Under the pieces are notes generated by a model. It did no database searches and was not told the DNA's origin. It saw only the letters and a program-made list of their open reading frames with translations. The position numbers were made by a program, and so were the translations under genes. From a phage, in sequence record PZ386970.1: a stretch of 64,000 bases of DNA; one strand, 5' to 3'. Shown here in pieces: positions 40,705 to 48,500 of the stretch; position 1 is the stretch's first letter; each line of letters begins with the position of its first letter.

Positions 40705-40945
40705 CTCGGTCCCATGATTTGGCCATTAATTCAGACATAAATTCTTCAATGCGCGTTTCTTTAGATGGACTTTCACTATTAGAGACCGCAAGTTTGTAAT
40801 CTGCAATAGGACAGAACATATCAAGGTCCATATTAAGGTCGTCTTTGATTTTTTCTTCTGACACATCTTTATCGTATGTGTACAGATAACTATCACATGA
40901 TTCTGATTTAATGTAAATTGCTATACTCATCTCAAATTCCTGCAT
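40694..40945 (-). CDS. Hypothetical acidic protein
   Basis: 83 aa ORF. Confidence 0.45.
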   Translation of the reverse strand: MQEFEMSIAIYIKSESCDSYLYTYDKDVSEEKIKDDLNMDLDMFCPIADYKLAVSNSESPSKETRIEEFMSELMAKSWDRDDE

Positions 40946-41274
40946 TCAGTAATAAAACGTTCAACTTCGTTATTCTTGGCTTTTATCTTGTCTTTATGTT
41001 CTTGTAAACTACTTTTAATAAGATTAATAATGATGGCGGCGGTACCGCCGCCAATGATGCCACCAACAACACTTATGATACTAGATGCTAATAAGATAGC
41101 AATAATATCAACAAAACCGAAAGAACTCACCTTAGTACTAAAAAACCATACCGACGGTACAAATATAATCCATCCTGTTATCCATTGGCACTTATTGAAA
41201 AACTTTTCAAGCTCAGCTTGAGTTGTTCGTATTACTTCATCGATAGGTTGATATCCATTAATGTATCTATTCAT
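40927..41274 (-). CDS. Hypothetical membrane protein
   Basis: 115 aa; 2 TM helices. Confidence 0.5.
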   Translation of the reverse strand: MNRYINGYQPIDEVIRTTQAELEKFFNKCQWITGWIIFVPSVWFFSTKVSSFGFVDIIAILLASSIISVVGGIIGGGTAAIIINLIKSSLQEHKDKIKAKNNEVERFITECRNLR

Positions 41275-41275
41275 A

Positions 41276-41581
41276 TTATTTTCCTCGACATTCTTTAATG
41301 AAATTTTCTAGATTGGTAGATTCAATAGCTTTTTTACGAGCTTCTGCATGTTCTTCTTCAGACAATTTACATTTATAATTAACCCAGACATTATGGTCAA
41401 AACTAGTCGTGGCATATAATAACAATGCTCCAACGAATAACAAAAACGGCGATAAGAATACAAAACCAGGAACACCATCCATATCGTAAGCCTTTTGTAA
41501 TACTGCAACAGAAAGGGCTGCGTAAAAAGGTGATGCAAATATTGTTAAAAGACCAATTCGGTTGGTTTCGCCTAATTTCAT
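41276..41581 (-). CDS. Hypothetical membrane protein
   Basis: 101 aa; 2 TM helices; early promoter/stem-loop upstream. Confidence 0.5.
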   Translation of the reverse strand: MKLGETNRIGLLTIFASPFYAALSVAVLQKAYDMDGVPGFVFLSPFLLFVGALLLYATTSFDHNVWVNYKCKLSEEEHAEARKKAIESTNLENFIKECRGK

Positions 41582-41650: not shown

Positions 41651-42607
41651 TTATTTGAAAGGTTTTACCATATGGAAATTTTGTTTGAAACGTTTGACGT
41701 AATCATTTTTGCCGAGCTTATGATACATAGCCACTACTTCATAATAGTTCTCGTATGCGTACTCACGGAACCAACCGGAGGTGATGCTTGTACAGACTTT
41801 TTCTAATGCCATCATGAAACTGGCTTCAGGGTTAATTTTAAAGTCATTAGGAATCTGAGAACGTTCAAGAGCTAGTACACATGCTTCTTCGTATACACCG
41901 GCCAATTTGACCATTTCTGGTAATGATTCGAACTTCTCGCGTGAGGTCATGACTTCAGAACCATCTTTCATGTAAAATGTATAAGCCGGACGGTCTGTTA
42001 GTGCAATGGCTTCATGAATAGTATCATGGTCATATGTGTAGATGTCATCTTTAAAGAATGCGCTTTTAGAAGTGTCAAGAACTGGGTGAGCATAGTTCAA
42101 GGTTTCTTTCTGGCGTTTCAGCATAATTTCAGTAAGTTCATCATTCAGTGTAACACCTTTACCGCGAAGATACTGAATATGGTTCATAGTCTTTAAAAAG
42201 AATGGATTATTTTTCTTGAAACGATGAGACATCTTAATTGCAAGACATATCTCAGGAGTTGCCCAGTAAAACCCGTTCAAACGGTCTTTAGTCAAATTTT
42301 TCTTGGCGTATTTTAAAAGGTCATAAGAAGACGTGAAATCTTCAGGAGTGAGTTCACCGACTAATTCACGGACATTAGTGATTGCCGGAACGATGTATGC
42401 TTCAAAATGAGTTTCGCGTCCATTATGGAAGCATTTGAAAACTTGGACATCAGGGTTATCTTGGTGAACATATACGCCCATCATTTGATTTTTGAATGCA
42501 TTCCAAGAACCTTGGTCCGCAATAAAGTCCCAGTCACTATTTTTGATAGCGCTAGAATCAATAAGACCGTGATAGTGAAGTGCACGAGAACCAATAACTA
42601 ACATCAT
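41651..42607 (-). CDS. Hypothetical protein
   Basis: 318 aa ORF; no motif recognised. Confidence 0.6.
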   Translation of the reverse strand: MMLVIGSRALHYHGLIDSSAIKNSDWDFIADQGSWNAFKNQMMGVYVHQDNPDVQVFKCFHNGRETHFEAYIVPAITNVRELVGELTPEDFTSSYDLLKYAKKNLTKDRLNGFYWATPEICLAIKMSHRFKKNNPFFLKTMNHIQYLRGKGVTLNDELTEIMLKRQKETLNYAHPVLDTSKSAFFKDDIYTYDHDTIHEAIALTDRPAYTFYMKDGSEVMTSREKFESLPEMVKLAGVYEEACVLALERSQIPNDFKINPEASFMMALEKVCTSITSGWFREYAYENYYEVVAMYHKLGKNDYVKRFKQNFHMVKPFK

Positions 42608-42632
42608 AATAATTTCCTCGAATTTAGATTAC

Positions 42633-42872
42633 TTAAATTTCACGACATGCGATATTATATTCATCCCAGAGGTCATCGTGTGAAGCCTCTACCAATGGAA
42701 CGATTGTACCGTTTATGTCTTCATTATAAGGGCAAATTGTACAGTGCGCATCTTCGAATCGGATGCCTTTGTGTTCAGATTTTTTATAACGCATATCGAA
42801 TATCTTTGCAAACTTTTCACGAGTAATGGTTTTACCAACCACTTTGGTTCCGATACTTTCGTAATAAATCAT
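42633..42872 (-). CDS. Hypothetical protein (start at MIYYESIG with GGAG RBS)
   Basis: ORF-track frame 42633..42884, trimmed 4 codons. Confidence 0.5.
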   Translation of the reverse strand: MIYYESIGTKVVGKTITREKFAKIFDMRYKKSEHKGIRFEDAHCTICPYNEDINGTIVPLVEASHDDLWDEYNIACREI

Positions 42873-42900
42873 TGTGGACTCCATTTAATTTGATAGGACT

Positions 42901-42930
42901 ACTATAACATAGCCCTATCTTGTTGTAAAC
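42901..42930 (-). promoter_or_regulatory. Early promoter with stem-loop (PeSL-like)
   Basis: Plus-strand gATAGGACTACTATAACATAGCCCTATc then GTAAAC; precedes ORF 42633..42872. Confidence 0.7.
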
Positions 42931-42934
42931 TGTT

Positions 42935-43132
42935 TTAGCAAGAATAACTAGATGATACCCAGCCTTGAACAGTAATACTATTGTGGGATAATGAGATCGC
43001 GTCCTGGAGATTCAGACCTGCGTTATCTTCAATCCATAATGTAACTTCTTCGCGTTCTTCTGTTGCAATTTGGAACAGGTTTTCCAGAGCAGCTACTGCC
43101 GTACGTACAGCACAATCTAATTCACGAGACAT
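42935..43132 (-). CDS. Small acidic protein, member of a tandem paralog family with conserved C-terminus (QGWVSSSYSC)
   Basis: 65 aa; C-terminal G-W-V-S-S-S-x-x-C shared with the two upstream ORFs. Confidence 0.5.
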   Translation of the reverse strand: MSRELDCAVRTAVAALENLFQIATEEREEVTLWIEDNAGLNLQDAISLSHNSITVQGWVSSSYSC

Positions 43133-43141
43133 AATATTTCC

Positions 43142-43414
43142 TTAGCAAGTGTGAGAAGATGCAACCCAACCGCCATCTTCAAGGCTCAAGTTGTAGTCGT
43201 ATTGGTGAACGTCGGCCCATTCAGGATTACCATGTTTAGTATGATGTTCAAGGTCGGCTTTAAGATAACCTGGTGAATGATAGGTTCCGCCCATACCATA
43301 TGCCGGATACAAATTAAACGTGGTGTTTTGTTTATCAGCAATTTCTTTGGCTGCCTCAATAGCTGCATAGATTTTTGCTACAGCTTCAGCCAGTTCAGTT
43401 TGTTCTTTAGACAT
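43142..43414 (-). CDS. Small acidic protein, tandem paralog family member (…GGWVASSHTC)
   Basis: 90 aa; N-terminal MSKEQ…; conserved C-terminal motif. Confidence 0.55.
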   Translation of the reverse strand: MSKEQTELAEAVAKIYAAIEAAKEIADKQNTTFNLYPAYGMGGTYHSPGYLKADLEHHTKHGNPEWADVHQYDYNLSLEDGGWVASSHTC

Positions 43415-43423
43415 AATGATTCC

Positions 43424-43729
43424 TTAGCACAATGCAGAAGACGAAACCCAAGCACCTTCAGTAATAACGTAACCATTACCTTCACGCTTAACATCGCCAC
43501 CATTATTTTCAATTTCATCTTTCATCCACTGGGATACGATTTCACCCTTAGGATAATAAGTACGACCGCTACCATAATCACCTACAGAAAATGATACGGC
43601 ATATTGGTCTGCGATCTTTGTTGCTTCTTCTTCGATACGTTCAGCTTGATTCAGAAGTTTATAAATTGCATCTGAAGCAGATTTGGCATCATTAAACTCT
43701 GGTACTTTAATTTCAATAATCTTACTCAT
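43424..43729 (-). CDS. Small acidic protein, tandem paralog family member (…GAWVSSSALC)
   Basis: 101 aa; N-terminal MSKII…; conserved C-terminal motif. Confidence 0.55.
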   Translation of the reverse strand: MSKIIEIKVPEFNDAKSASDAIYKLLNQAERIEEEATKIADQYAVSFSVGDYGSGRTYYPKGEIVSQWMKDEIENNGGDVKREGNGYVITEGAWVSSSALC

Positions 43730-44085
43730 TTTCTACATTCCTTAATAAAGTTTTCGATTGTTTCATTTTCACGTTTAGCTAGGAGTTCATTATAACTAAT
43801 CATTTGAGAAGCGTAAACCTTTTTATTTTTCTTGTTATGGTTTATAAAATCGTAGTAAAAATAGACTACAGTACAAAATGATGCGATGGATGCAAAGGCT
43901 TGGGTATACCGTAAGTCCTGCCATTGGTCTGTGAATCCACTGGTATTCCCTATAAATCCTAACACAACTCCGTCAATAAGAAATCCAACTAATCCAAAGG
44001 CAAATCCCATGCCAATACTCATAATAAAAATTAGAATGTTCTCACCAAGAGAAGGCCATACGGTTAAGAGTTGAGGCTTTTGCAT
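43726..44085 (-). CDS. Hypothetical membrane protein
   Basis: 119 aa; 3 hydrophobic helices. Confidence 0.5.
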   Translation of the reverse strand: MQKPQLLTVWPSLGENILIFIMSIGMGFAFGLVGFLIDGVVLGFIGNTSGFTDQWQDLRYTQAFASIASFCTVVYFYYDFINHNKKNKKVYASQMISYNELLAKRENETIENFIKECRK

Positions 44086-44489
44086 CTTATTTCCTTAACG
44101 AATTCCATAGCTTCTTCATATTCATATTTTTTAACAGCCTCGTCATATTGAGCTCTTGCTTTTGCACATTGAATTTTCCATTCGCGTACTCGAGCTCTGT
44201 GATGACGGCCTTGGTACCAATATCCTGCCCAATTAATAGGCATTAATAAAAACGGTACAATAAGTGGTGCGACGAACATTAATGAAAACGCTGCATCAGA
44301 CGATATAACTTTATTGGAATCTAAAACAGCTCCTATAATCATAAAGATTAAAAATGCTAAAGCTAAAATAGGACCAAACAACACTTCATTAGGAATTAAT
44401 TTACGTTTGTATTCGTACGCCCAAGGCTTAATTGGCATGTATAGGGTTGGCTTTGACATATTCTCTACATTCCATAATAAATTGCTCAA
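44064..44489 (-). CDS. Hypothetical membrane protein
   Basis: 141 aa; 2-3 TM helices. Confidence 0.5.
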   Translation of the reverse strand: MSNLLWNVENMSKPTLYMPIKPWAYEYKRKLIPNEVLFGPILALAFLIFMIIGAVLDSNKVISSDAAFSLMFVAPLIVPFLLMPINWAGYWYQGRHHRARVREWKIQCAKARAQYDEAVKKYEYEEAMEFVKEIRCKSLNS

Positions 44490-45030
44490 GGATTAAATTG
44501 TTAGTGAAATTAGGACTAACAACCATGGTTTCATAAAGCGCATCAATAGCACTTAAAGCATCAACTCTTTTAAGCAAAGGCTTGCCTTCATACATAGTTT
44601 CAGAATCAACGATTAAAGTGAAGTAGTATTTTTTATTATCGACTAGAACTTCTGTATCGATATAAAACATATTAGACCTCAGAAGTTTATCTCTAAAGCC
44701 TACATAATCATCTGAACGTTCACTGATATATTCCCATTCGGTGTTTAAACAACAAACAGACCATGTAGGAGCAACGAAATCAGTGAATCTAATATCATGG
44801 TCTGCAACTAGTTTAGCAATAGCTCCGATATCATGAATCATAATACCTGGGGCTAATAAAGATTTTCTACTATGGCTAGCCGTTTTCTCAGTAGTCTCAT
44901 AAGAAGACGACCAGTACCATTTACGTCCAGTTGCAACATATCGTAATGAATCAACTAAAGACGTAGGTGGATTTACCTTATCTCGGAACTCTTCGAACAT
45001 TGAGTCAATATCATTATTTTGGTTTCGCAT
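44428..45030 (-). CDS. Hypothetical protein (start at MRNQNNDID with AAGGAG RBS)
   Basis: ORF-track frame 44428..45051 trimmed to the RBS-supported ATG immediately after a terminator hairpin. Confidence 0.55.
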   Translation of the reverse strand: MRNQNNDIDSMFEEFRDKVNPPTSLVDSLRYVATGRKWYWSSSYETTEKTASHSRKSLLAPGIMIHDIGAIAKLVADHDIRFTDFVAPTWSVCCLNTEWEYISERSDDYVGFRDKLLRSNMFYIDTEVLVDNKKYYFTLIVDSETMYEGKPLLKRVDALSAIDALYETMVVSPNFTNNLILEQFIMECREYVKANPIHAN

Positions 45031-45053
45031 GTTAACTCCTTTATTATCCAAAA

Positions 45054-48344: not shown

Positions 48345-48421
<77 letters not shown>

Positions 48422-48425
48422 GATT

Positions 48426-48500
48426 GGTGACCCTGGCTGGTTTCGATCCAGCTACCTATCAGTTATGAGCTGACAGCTCTCCCATTGAGCTACAGGGCCT
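48426..48500 (-). tRNA. tRNA with CAU anticodon (Met, or Ile if lysidine-modified as in T4 tRNA-Ile)
   Basis: Manual cloverleaf: acceptor GGCCCTG/CAGGGTC, D-arm GCTC-AATGGGA-GAGC, anticodon stem GTCAG/CTGAT with loop CTCATAA, T-arm GCTGG-ATCGAAA-CCAGC, 3' ACCA. Confidence 0.8.

What the first reader, a model, noticed from the sequence alone, without database searches (positions are those of the whole stretch)
42935..43729. Tandem triplet of small acidic proteins sharing a C-terminal G-[GAQ]-W-V-[AS]-S-S-x-x-C motif
Three adjacent minus-strand ORFs (65, 90 and 101 aa) have divergent bodies but end in nearly the same nine residues (…GGWVASSHTC, …GAWVSSSALC, …QGWVSSSYSC). Two also share the MSK(E/I) N-terminus. 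A conserved C-terminal tail with terminal Cys on divergent small proteins suggests a shared docking, processing or modification signal. I do not recognise the family.
Basis: seen in the sequence. Interest (0 to 1): 0.55.

Follow-up and report, generated by a model that had tools for sequence, protein, structure and literature searches.

The report
Cys-tailed small proteins beside phage nucleotidyltransferase
The three small genes are real members of a large, unnamed phage-only protein family that ends in W-x-x-S-S-x-x-Cys, and they almost always sit in a row just upstream of one uncharacterised nucleotidyltransferase-like enzyme, which points to an unstudied two-part phage system.

Summary
Three adjacent minus-strand genes (65, 90 and 101 aa) in an RB69-like (Mosigvirus) T4-type phage end in W-V-[AS]-S-S-x-x-C-stop. 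The motif occurs nowhere else in the six frames of the window.

The 90- and 101-aa proteins are full-length paralogues. Only the 65-aa body is truly divergent. All three belong to a phage-restricted family of small acidic proteins: 671 clusters at 50% identity, no Pfam entry and no PDB relative. In 183 of 195 sampled members the tail sits at the exact C-terminus.

The main new result is gene linkage. One to five tail-bearing genes lie directly upstream, on the same strand, of a DUF7277-DUF7275 protein (window 41651-42607).
- Starting from the small proteins, 29 of the 31 loci held then have the enzyme, and the other two stop too short to show it.
- Starting from the enzyme, about 79 of 85 loci have tail genes.
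- The strict tail is found in 188 upstream ORFs and in none of 3,747 others.

That enzyme has an invariant G-S...D-x-D...E motif, and its closest solved folds are MenT toxins and antibiotic nucleotidyltransferases.

My best reading (inferred, about 0.4): the tail is the element this enzyme recognises, and probably nucleotidylates on Ser. The main rival is that the small proteins are MenA1-like inhibitors of the enzyme. Neither the family nor the pairing came up in six full-text literature searches.

The parts
43424..43729 (-). Paralogue A, 101 aa, pI 4.6. Layout: N-terminal strand, long helix, YGSGRTYY hairpin, then the tail AWVSSSALC at the C-terminus. Its start overlaps the stop of the e.3-like gene (ATGA).
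   Evidence: phrog_899; AF2 pLDDT 89
43142..43414 (-). Paralogue B, 90 aa, pI 5.1. It is the canonical family member, with IADK..F.L..AYGMGGTYH and the tail GWVASSHTC at the C-terminus.
   Evidence: (phrog_899)
42935..43132 (-). Paralogue C, 65 aa, pI 4.2. It is a degenerate member: the helix is kept, the YGMGG hairpin is lost, and the tail GWVSSSYSC at the C-terminus is intact.
   Evidence: (phrog_4882)
43427..43450 (-). Tail codons W-V-S-S-S-A-L-C of paralogue A
43145..43168 (-). Tail codons W-V-A-S-S-H-T-C of paralogue B
42938..42961 (-). Tail codons W-V-S-S-S-Y-S-C of paralogue C
41651..42607 (-). Partner enzyme, 318 aa, with Pfam domains DUF7277 (N-terminal) and DUF7275 (C-terminal helical). 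It has the Pol-beta-type nucleotidyltransferase motif G6-S7...D25-x-D27...E69, and its closest solved folds are MenT1, TglT and MenT4 toxins and ANT(2'')/LnuA.
   Evidence: (pLDDT 90)
42633..42884 (-). Intervening 83-aa gene of unknown function (phrog_3723). Among the fetched loci it occurs only in the RB69-like (Mosigvirus) relatives, so it is probably not part of the conserved module.
43789..43817 (-). Promoter-like site (TTTACG-17-TATAAT) inside the e.3-like gene, upstream of the array. A T4 middle-promoter site is annotated inside the e.3-like gene of phage SA79RD.
42892..42919 (-). RNA hairpin (11 bp, -16 kcal/mol, z = -3.6) between paralogue C and the 83-aa gene. A terminator is annotated at about this place, between the two homologous genes, in SA79RD. 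No U-tract follows, so termination there is uncertain.

Best explanation
The three genes are co-oriented, translationally coupled paralogues. They belong to a phage-specific family of small acidic alpha/beta proteins that work together with the nucleotidyltransferase-like enzyme encoded just downstream (41651-42607).

The invariant C-terminal G-x-W-x-[SA]-S-S-x-x-C is the element this enzyme recognises. The W-containing strand anchors the tail to the small fold. The exposed S-S-x-x-C end enters the active-site cleft, where the enzyme most likely transfers a nucleotide monophosphate onto a tail Ser hydroxyl. One enzyme would thus put the same tag on several small proteins with different bodies, which then act in host takeover or counter-defence.

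Shown: the family, the invariance and terminal position of the tail, the gene linkage, and the enzyme's catalytic motif and fold. Inferred: physical binding, covalent modification and the downstream role.
For: 1. The family is real and large. There are 671 representatives at E<=1e-3, nearly all 65-175 aa, and they match the profile through to their last residue. W, S-S and C are invariant. The Cys is the very last residue in 183 of 195 members.

2. Gene linkage holds in both directions. Starting from small proteins, 29 of the 31 loci held then carry the enzyme downstream on the same strand, and the other two (L009, L013) stop too short to show it. Starting from the enzyme, 77 of 85 loci have 1-5 tail ORFs within 3 kb upstream, and two more (L034, L063) were missed by a filter. 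The strict tail occurs in 188 upstream same-strand ORFs and in 0 of 3,747 other ORFs (Fisher p = 2.6e-115).

3. Across 22 enzyme clades, the tail family is the only other gene family that recurs broadly next to the enzyme (15 clades). No other family is found in more than 4.

5. The invariant tail residues are nucleophiles (Ser, Ser, Cys) and they survive in paralogues whose bodies have decayed (ORF65). Up to five paralogues per single enzyme fits several substrates better than several antitoxins.

6. The only enzyme clade without tail genes has W279R in the otherwise invariant SITSG[WY]FR motif, and one of its members carries a frameshifted enzyme gene.
Against: - There is no direct evidence of binding or modification. 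Co-folding could not be run.
- The AlphaFold model places G-A-W-V-S in a beta-strand and S-S-A-L in a short helix, so part of the motif may be purely structural.
- Distant enzyme homologues in Gordonia and Streptomyces phages have no W..SS..C neighbours, so the enzyme family can function without this partner family.
- Known MenT-type enzymes act on tRNA 3' ends, not on proteins (PMC10435456).
- The Pol-beta-fold protein nucleotidylators I know of (GlnD, GlnE, MntA) modify Tyr, not Ser (own knowledge).
Confidence: 0.4

Rival explanations
1. The small proteins are inhibitors or timers of the enzyme, analogous to antitoxins. The enzyme's real substrate would be RNA, for example tRNA 3' ends as for MenT toxins. 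The small proteins would bind it and plug its active site with the tail, as the 68-aa MenA1 blocks MenT1, to keep the phage enzyme silent or time its action.
For: - The closest solved structures are MenT toxins.
- MenA1 is a 68-aa protein encoded upstream of MenT1, and it blocks the active sites (PMC10435456).
- The gene order is the same here.
- Enzyme homologues exist without tail genes in actinophages and in one clade of phage contigs (longest about 141 kb), so the enzyme has a tail-independent activity.
- RNA ligase or tRNA genes lie within a few kb in several loci.
Against: - Up to five paralogues per enzyme is unusual for an antitoxin.
- Antitoxins usually co-diverge with their toxin. 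They do not normally keep an invariant W..SS..C at the exact C-terminus across 22 enzyme clades.
- No RNA-repair gene is consistently linked.
- The enzyme does not match DUF1814/AbiEii or RlaP by sequence.
Confidence: 0.3
2. The tail has a function unrelated to the neighbouring enzyme. It could be part of the fold's core plus a single-Cys site for metal-bridged or disulfide oligomerisation, or a docking or degradation motif read by a host protein. The adjacency to the enzyme would then be inherited synteny.
For: - The model puts W and the preceding residues in the beta-sheet.
- A long amphipathic N-terminal helix could drive oligomerisation.
- There is only one conserved Cys per protein, so metal binding would need several chains.
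Against: - The linkage persists across T4-like, jumbo (about 370 kb), Phapecoctavirus, Acinetobacter and Aeromonas phages and MAG contigs that share no other conserved neighbour.
- The strict tail is never found away from the enzyme in the sampled loci (0 of 3,747 other ORFs).
- Structural need does not explain invariant Ser-Ser or a Cys fixed as the last residue.
Confidence: 0.15
3. RiPP-like cyclisation. The enzyme activates a tail Ser by nucleotidylation, elimination gives dehydroalanine, and the terminal Cys adds to it. The result would be a C-terminal lanthionine-type (S-x-x-C) ring, as in the S-x-x-C end of epidermin-type lanthipeptides.
For: - The S at -3 and the C at the C-terminus reproduce the ring spacing of epidermin-type peptides (own knowledge; tail logo).
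- Several 'precursor' genes precede one enzyme gene.
- The enzyme has a large, highly conserved second domain (DUF7275) with many invariant His, Asp, Glu and Cys residues and no assigned function.
Against: - No dehydratase, lyase, cyclase or HFCD flavoprotein is linked.
- The putative 'core' is the most conserved part, the opposite of RiPP precursors.
- The proteins are folded 65-175-aa domains, not leader-core peptides.
- A subfamily has the tail W-x-x-S-S-C with no spacer.
Confidence: 0.05
4. Artefact: wrong frames or starts, low-complexity sequence, or a nucleotide-level element such as a ribosome-binding site or recombination site.
For: The stop codons are followed at once by the next gene's AAGGA ribosome-binding site.
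Against: - The ribosome-binding site lies after the stop, not within the tail codons.
- Ser codons differ between the paralogues and substitutions are mostly synonymous.
- The motif is absent from all other frames and from shuffled windows.
- Hundreds of homologues keep the tail with different codons.
Confidence: 0.01

Closest known systems
MenAT1 toxin-antitoxin pair of Mycobacterium tuberculosis (MenA1 68 aa + MenT1 nucleotidyltransferase; PDB 8an4/8an5; PMC10435456)
   Different: - No sequence similarity. The enzyme does not match DUF1814/AbiEii, and it carries an extra helical domain of about 190 aa (DUF7275).
- The small partners come as 1-5 paralogues with an invariant W..SS..C C-terminal tail, which is not among the MenA1 features described in the parts of PMC10435456 read here.
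- The system is phage-borne and virtually absent from bacterial genomes.
HEPN-MNT (HepT-MntA) modules, and GlnD/PII and GlnE/GS (own knowledge)
   Same: A Pol-beta-fold nucleotidyltransferase covalently nucleotidylates a specific partner protein encoded with it. This is the proposed working principle here.
   Different: Those enzymes modify Tyr of a HEPN RNase, PII or glutamine synthetase. Here the candidate acceptors are Ser (or Cys) in a C-terminal tail of small acidic proteins with no HEPN or PII features.
CitX/CitD and MdcG/MdcC holo-acyl-carrier-protein synthases (own knowledge)
   Same: A nucleotidyltransferase-class enzyme attaches a nucleotide-derived group by a phosphodiester bond to a Ser of a small acidic protein.
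   Different: There is a single carrier protein with an internal Ser, in a metabolic operon. There is no terminal Cys motif, no tandem paralogues and no detectable sequence relation.
RlaP (PF10127) RNA-ligase-associated nucleotidyltransferases of phages (PMC7824862; PMC12776372)
   Same: It is a phage-encoded Pol-beta nucleotidyltransferase. Some loci of the present enzyme have RNA ligase and PNK genes a few kb away.
   Different: The enzyme does not match PF10127 at E<=5. RNA ligase is not consistently adjacent. The passages of these papers read here mention no tail-bearing small proteins with RlaP.
Lanthipeptide/AviCys precursors ending in S-x-x-C (own knowledge)
   Same: The S-x-x-C spacing at the C-terminus is the same, and several small genes precede one enzyme gene.
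   Different: There is no dehydratase, cyclase or LanD flavoprotein. The tail is the conserved part, not the variable part. The proteins are folded domains.
PHROG families phrog_899 and phrog_4882; Pfam DUF7277 and DUF7275
   Same: The window's proteins are members of these families.
   Different: All four are catalogued as 'unknown function'. In the entries and search output seen here, none records the tail motif, the nucleotidyltransferase nature of DUF7277, or the pairing.

Membership tests
phrog_899 / phrog_4882 (small tail proteins) | Significant match to the PHROG profile | tested here: met
   The 101-aa protein scores 1.3e-22 and the 90-aa protein 8e-19 against phrog_899 (C-terminal columns 134/148-221). 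The 65-aa protein scores 7.7e-37 against phrog_4882.
W..SS..C-tailed small-protein family (defined here) | Invariant W-x-[SA]-S-S-x-x-C as the last residues | tested here: met
   All three ORFs carry it. So do 183 of 195 family hits.
W..SS..C-tailed small-protein family (defined here) | Helix plus (I/L)AD..G..F.F..YG(M/S)GGTYY hairpin body | tested here: met
   Met for the 90- and 101-aa proteins: E 2e-20 and 3e-14 without their tails, against a profile that holds no window sequence. Only marginal for the 65-aa protein (E about 0.01).
W..SS..C-tailed small-protein family (defined here) | Located upstream, on the same strand, of a DUF7277-DUF7275 gene | tested here: met
   In the window the array lies at 42935-43729 and the enzyme at 41651-42607.
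Pfam DUF7277 + DUF7275 (enzyme) | Scores above the Pfam gathering thresholds | tested here: met
   PF23942 scores 97 bits and PF23940 261 bits; the cut-off is 27 for both.
Pol-beta-superfamily nucleotidyltransferase | hG[GS] motif, [DE]x[DE] motif and a third carboxylate on the core sheet | tested here: met
   G6, S7, D25, D27 and E69 are invariant in 29 sequences of 44-75% identity. Strands 2-5, 26-31 and 54-73 appear in the model.
Pol-beta-superfamily nucleotidyltransferase | Fold match to solved nucleotidyltransferases | tested here: met
MenT/AbiEii (DUF1814) toxin-antitoxin systems | Toxin matches the DUF1814/AbiEii sequence family | tested here: not met
   No Pfam family other than PF23940/PF23942 matched more than 2 of the 29 members at E<=5. 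PADLOC and NCBIfam gave no hits.
MenT/AbiEii (DUF1814) toxin-antitoxin systems | Cognate antitoxin encoded upstream that neutralises a growth-inhibiting toxin | not testable with these tools
   The gene order is compatible. Toxicity and neutralisation need experiments.
MenT/AbiEii (DUF1814) toxin-antitoxin systems | Nucleotide addition to tRNA 3' ends | not testable with these tools
   This is a biochemical assay.
RlaP (PF10127) | Match to PF10127 | tested here: not met
   No match at E<=1 or E<=5.
HEPN-MNT | Partner protein is a HEPN domain with the R-x4-6-H motif | tested here: not met
   The small proteins have no HEPN match in Pfam. Their only invariant residues are G, W, S, S and C. The enzyme's weak hit to the RNase L KEN domain (E 0.052) stops before the region holding that domain's catalytic residues, as I recall them.
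HD-domain phosphohydrolase (considered for DUF7275 because of the conserved H...HD...H) | Match to an HD profile or HD fold | tested here: not met
Lanthipeptide/AviCys RiPP cluster | Dehydratase or kinase-lyase, cyclase, or LanD flavoprotein in the cluster | tested here: not met
   Apart from the tail genes and the enzyme, no gene family recurs in more than 4 of the 22 enzyme clades. The enzyme has no Pfam match to such families.
Lanthipeptide/AviCys RiPP cluster | Conserved leader and variable core | tested here: not met
   The C-terminal tail is the most conserved segment.
Ubiquitin-like / sulfur-carrier proteins | C-terminal Gly-Gly and an E1/ThiF-type adenylating enzyme | tested here: not met
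   The proteins end in x-x-C. The neighbouring enzyme has a Pol-beta fold, not an E1 fold.

The most novel reading that the evidence does not exclude
The array and the enzyme form a virus-specific protein-tagging system. A MenT-like nucleotidyltransferase would covalently modify the invariant S-S-x-x-C C-terminal end of a set of small acidic proteins. The modification could be O-nucleotidylation of Ser or chemistry derived from it, such as elimination and thioether ring closure with the terminal Cys. The result would be nucleotide- or ring-capped effectors that the phage uses against host nucleotide-sensing or nucleic-acid-binding defences. This would be a previously unknown post-translational modification pathway, present in about 1.4% of sequenced phages.
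Probability: 0.3. Interest if true: 0.85.

Novelty: new variant of a known kind. Interest (0 to 1): 0.68.

Why it matters
The enzyme occurs in 734 of 50,697 deposited phage genomes, including several genera of large Gram-negative-infecting phages (Mosigvirus, Phapecoctavirus, the Acinetobacter Lazarusvirus group, and T4-like Aeromonas and Klebsiella phages). Its role has never been addressed. One reason is that the model phage T4 lacks the module: its e.2 and e.3 genes abut.

The pairing turns roughly 670 clusters of 'hypothetical' small proteins and two Pfam DUFs into one testable system with a defined enzyme, a defined active site (G-S/D-x-D) and a defined eight-residue target motif. If the tail is modified, this would be a new viral protein-modification chemistry and a new class of tagged effectors. 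If the small proteins are inhibitors, it would be a phage-borne counterpart of MenAT toxin-antitoxin modules, with an RNA-tailing enzyme used by the virus.

Either outcome bears on phage-host conflict, and the tail motif is a ready handle for annotation.

Tried and rejected
- **Frame or low-complexity artefact:** rejected.
- **Tail conserved as a nucleotide element or ribosome-binding site:** rejected. The Shine-Dalgarno sequence lies after the stop, and the Ser codons differ.
- **Two giant hits of the profile search (P0054, P0111):** they are cadherin-repeat proteins that match only the hairpin region, so they are spurious.
- **HD-domain reading of DUF7275:** no support.
- **HEPN/KEN reading:** a single hit at E 0.052 that stops short of the catalytic region.
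- **RlaP membership:** not met.
- **The 83-aa gene between the array and the enzyme as a third component:** among the fetched loci it is found only in the RB69-like relatives.
- **Any other conserved neighbour (lyase, flavoprotein, kinase, RNA ligase):** none recurs in more than 4 of the 22 enzyme clades.
- **Presence in bacterial genomes:** the AYGMGGTYY DNA pattern gave 0 hits. The enzyme was found in only 5 MAG contigs among the 185,579 species genomes, all five with W..S..C-type tail genes, which suggests phage contigs binned with the MAGs.
- **Literature:** searches for the RB69 ORF names, phrog_899, DUF7275/DUF7277 and related keywords found nothing on this module.
- **Tool limits:** The afdb50 fold library was unavailable.
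Full report
**1. Context**

The window is a T4-type myovirus of the genus Mosigvirus (RB69-like). Bases 42600-44100 are 98% identical to Escherichia phage ESCO47 and 96-97% identical to many other records. The finding lies in the 'e' region, between homologues of T4 e.2 and e.3. In records of related phages the genes are annotated as hypothetical proteins similar to RB69ORF136c and RB69ORF139c. In T4 itself e.2 and e.3 abut, so this block is an insertion that the model phage lacks.

**2.

The three minus-strand ORFs exist as described:

| ORF | Length | C-terminal end |
|---|---|---|
| 42935-43132 | 65 aa | ...GWVSSSYSC |
| 43142-43414 | 90 aa | ...GWVASSHTC |
| 43424-43729 | 101 aa | ...AWVSSSALC |

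- W-V-[AS]-S-S-x-x-C-stop occurs at these three places only, in all six frames of the window. Composition predicts 1.5e-4 occurrences, and 300 codon-shuffled windows gave none.
- The invariant serines use different codons in the three genes (TCG/GCA/TCA, then TCT/TCT/AGT).
- Differences from four related phages are mostly synonymous.
- Each gene has its own AAGGA ribosome-binding site, which lies after the stop of the preceding gene rather than inside the tail codons.

So these are real protein-coding genes, and the tail is conserved at protein level.

**3. The three are paralogues, not unrelated bodies with a shared tag**

- The 90- and 101-aa proteins align over their full length (BLASTP 3e-7), and both match the C-terminal part of phrog_899.
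- With their last nine residues removed, they still match a family profile built without any window sequence (E 2e-20 and 3e-14).
- The 65-aa protein (phrog_4882) keeps the N-terminal helix and the tail but has lost the central hairpin motif. Its body is barely recognisable (E about 0.01).
- All three are acidic (pI 4.2-5.1).

**4. The family**

A word-indexed search found 53 relatives. An exhaustive HMMER search of 1.84 billion cluster representatives found 671 at E<=1e-3 and 107 at E<=1e-10. Nearly all are 65-175 aa and match the profile through to their last residue.

The consensus is an amphipathic helix, then (I/L)AD(E)xGxxFxF, a YG(M/S)GGTYY hairpin, an acidic linker of variable length, and G-x-W-x-[SA]-S-S-x-x-C.

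- Of 195 small hits, 183 end exactly at the Cys, 7 have one more residue, and 4 are truncated (three look frameshifted).
- In 135 non-redundant two-spacer tails from genomic loci, W, S(-4), S(-3) and C(0) are invariant and position -5 is S or A in 119.
- A subfamily has W-x-x-S-S-C with no spacer, plus an internal ...SSSCYGE... copy.
- The family is absent from Pfam, NCBIfam and PADLOC.
- Two giant hits are cadherin-repeat proteins and are spurious.

**5. The key result: strict linkage to one enzyme gene**

Loci encoding distant family members, from a 370-kb jumbo-phage contig and from Aeromonas phage CC2, showed the same downstream gene as the window. It is a protein of about 300 aa with Pfam DUF7277 + DUF7275, at window 41651-42607.

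- *Starting from the small proteins.* Of the 31 loci held at that point, 29 carry this gene downstream on the same strand. The other two (L009, L013) stop too short to show it.
- *Starting from the enzyme.* In 80 viral loci plus 5 MAG contigs, 77 of 85 have 1-5 upstream same-strand ORFs ending in W-x-x-S-x0-3-C. Two more (L034, L063) were hidden by an overlap filter.
- *Specificity.* The strict tail W..SS.{0,2}C occurs in 188 upstream same-strand ORFs and in none of 3,747 downstream, overlapping or opposite-strand ORFs (Fisher p = 2.6e-115).
- *Other neighbours.* Across 22 enzyme clades (62% identity), the tail family recurs next to the enzyme in 15. No other gene family is found in more than 4.
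- *The 83-aa gene.* The gene between the array and the enzyme in the window occurs, among the fetched loci, only in the RB69-like relatives.
- *Exceptions.* They are informative. One clade (L074, L075, L077, L104) has no tail genes. It carries R instead of W in the otherwise invariant SITSG[WY]FR motif of the enzyme, and one member has a frameshifted enzyme gene. Distant homologues of the enzyme in Gordonia and Streptomyces phages (about 32-36% identity over the C-terminal half) also lack W..SS..C neighbours.
- *Further examples.* Phapecoctavirus and Acinetobacter Lazarusvirus phages have three upstream family genes each. In the Acinetobacter phage one of them has lost the terminal Cys.

**6. 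What the enzyme is**

- In 29 sequences of 44-75% identity, G6, S7, D25, D27 and E69 are invariant. This is the hG[GS]...[DE]x[DE]...[DE] signature of Pol-beta-type nucleotidyltransferases. Some 50 further residues are also invariant, mostly in the helical C-terminal domain, including C243 and C272.
- The AlphaFold model is confident (pLDDT 90).
- By sequence it matches only its own DUFs. It does not match DUF1814/AbiEii, RlaP (PF10127) or HD. A weak hit to the RNase L KEN domain (E 0.052) is not meaningful.
- It is therefore a remote, distinct branch of the MenT/ANT-like nucleotidyltransferases, enzymes that transfer an NMP onto a hydroxyl group.
- The family has more than 2,100 members in the large protein collection, and every one that carries a source name is from a phage or is unannotated.
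- It occurs in 734 of 50,697 phage records.
- It is almost absent from the 185,579 bacterial and archaeal species genomes: five MAG contigs, all with W..S..C-type tail genes alongside.

**7. Mechanism**

*Shown:* a two-gene-family module, with an invariant, strictly C-terminal, nucleophile-rich tail on one side and an intact hydroxyl-directed nucleotidyltransferase active site on the other.

*Inferred, best reading (about 0.4):* the tail is what the enzyme recognises, and a tail Ser is the acceptor of an NMP. One enzyme would then tag several differently bodied acidic proteins. The arguments are these:
- The tail survives in paralogues whose bodies have decayed.
- The conserved residues are chemical (S, S, C) rather than merely hydrophobic.
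- The terminal position is fixed.
- There are up to five paralogues per enzyme.
- Loss of the tail genes coincides with enzyme decay in one clade.

*Main rival (about 0.3):* the small proteins inhibit or time an enzyme whose substrate is RNA, as the 68-aa MenA1 blocks the active sites of the tRNA-tailing toxin MenT1 (PMC10435456). In its favour are the fold neighbours, the gene order, the existence of enzyme homologues without tail genes, and occasional nearby RNA ligase, PNK or tRNA genes.

*Less likely:*
- A tail function unrelated to the enzyme, such as structure, oligomerisation, metal binding or a host-docking motif (about 0.15).
- Lanthionine-like ring closure between Ser(-3) and the terminal Cys (about 0.05). 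No dehydratase, cyclase or flavoprotein is linked, and the 'core' is the conserved part.

What the (modified) proteins do afterwards is unknown. Their acidity and their place in the early/middle plastic region suggest host takeover or counter-defence. That is a guess.

**8. Comparison with known systems and novelty**

In architecture the module resembles MenAT1 (small upstream gene plus MenT-fold enzyme). In its proposed principle it resembles HEPN-MNT, GlnD/PII and CitX/CitD (a nucleotidyltransferase acting on a dedicated partner protein).

It is not a member of any of these by sequence, and the small-protein family has no known relative. PHROGs and Pfam list the parts as 'unknown function'. 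Searches for the gene names, family accessions and relevant keywords returned nothing on this module, and the jumbo-phage genomics survey that describes RlaP shows no mention of it in the passages retrieved.

I rate it a new variant of a known kind (nucleotidyltransferase plus dedicated small partner). There is a real chance (about 0.3) that it is a new protein-modification pathway.

**9. Limits**

- No co-folding could be run and no model coordinates were available.
- The afdb50 fold library was unavailable.
- Neighbourhood statistics rest on up to 4-6 kb of flank, so tail genes elsewhere in a genome would be missed.
- The fold similarity to MenT is remote.

Noticed in passing
window 40927-41274, 41276-41581, 43726-44085, 44064-44489, 44428-45051 (all minus strand): There is a second shared C-terminal motif in the neighbouring small proteins, most of them apparently membrane proteins (e.2-, e.3- and e.4-like): ...ERFITECRNLR, ...ENFIKECRGK, ...ENFIKECRK, ...EFVKEIRCKSLNS and ...EQFIMECREYV... 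The codons AAG-GAA-TGT carry the AAGGA ribosome-binding site of the overlapping next gene, at least upstream of the 101-aa gene. The motif may therefore be partly a nucleotide-level constraint of translational coupling. The same motif recurs in a related phage (L057 ORFs).
   Followed up: partly
window 41651-43729 versus T4 (L121 2153-2820): In T4, e.2 and e.3 abut. The tail array, the 83-aa gene, the enzyme and at least one extra membrane-protein gene form an insertion relative to T4. This helps explain why the module has not been studied.
   Followed up: yes
window 44064-44489 (-): Several GenBank records (ESCO47, JK45, F27, JK36) call the e.4-like gene 'sulfurtransferase'. It has no Pfam match, and its PHROG families are of unknown function. 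The annotation looks unfounded.
   Followed up: partly
P0022 (RB69ORF139c, 71 aa), P0012 (mar005P1, 75 aa), P0027: Public records hold frameshifted or truncated versions of the tail genes that have lost the tail. The RB69 reference genome is one of them. These are either sequencing errors or evidence that single copies are dispensable.
   Followed up: no
window 42892-42919 (-) and 42901-42929 (-): A stable hairpin (-16 kcal/mol, z = -3.6) lies between the 65-aa gene and the 83-aa gene, and it overlaps a promoter-like site (TTTACA-17-TATAGT). Phage SA79RD has a terminator annotated at about this place, but no U-tract follows. The array and the enzyme may be partly separate transcription units.
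   Followed up: partly
L117 (Gordonia phage ClubL) 2344-4100; L118 (Streptomyces phage Beuffert) 3378-4133: The actinophage homologues of the enzyme are shorter (263 and 251 aa) and have no W..SS..C neighbours. ClubL instead has three other small genes (genes 12, 13 and 15) upstream whose N-terminal sequences look alike, and a tRNA cluster downstream. Beuffert has an RNA ligase about 1 kb upstream.
   Followed up: partly
L074, L075, L077, L104: One enzyme clade has SITSGRFR in place of the invariant SITSGWFR and no tail genes within 4 kb. In L077 the enzyme gene is split by a frameshift.
   Followed up: partly
L038-L066, L120 2913-3131: A tail subfamily of about 75 aa ends in W-x-x-S-S-C with no spacer and also has an internal (W/L)-x-S-S-C-Y-G-E copy. 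The tail unit appears to be duplicated within one protein.
   Followed up: no
window 48345-48499 (-): tRNA-Arg(tct) and tRNA-Met(cat) genes lie about 4.6 kb upstream of the array. The closest relative, ESCO47, is annotated with three tRNAs there (Arg, Asn, Met).
   Followed up: no
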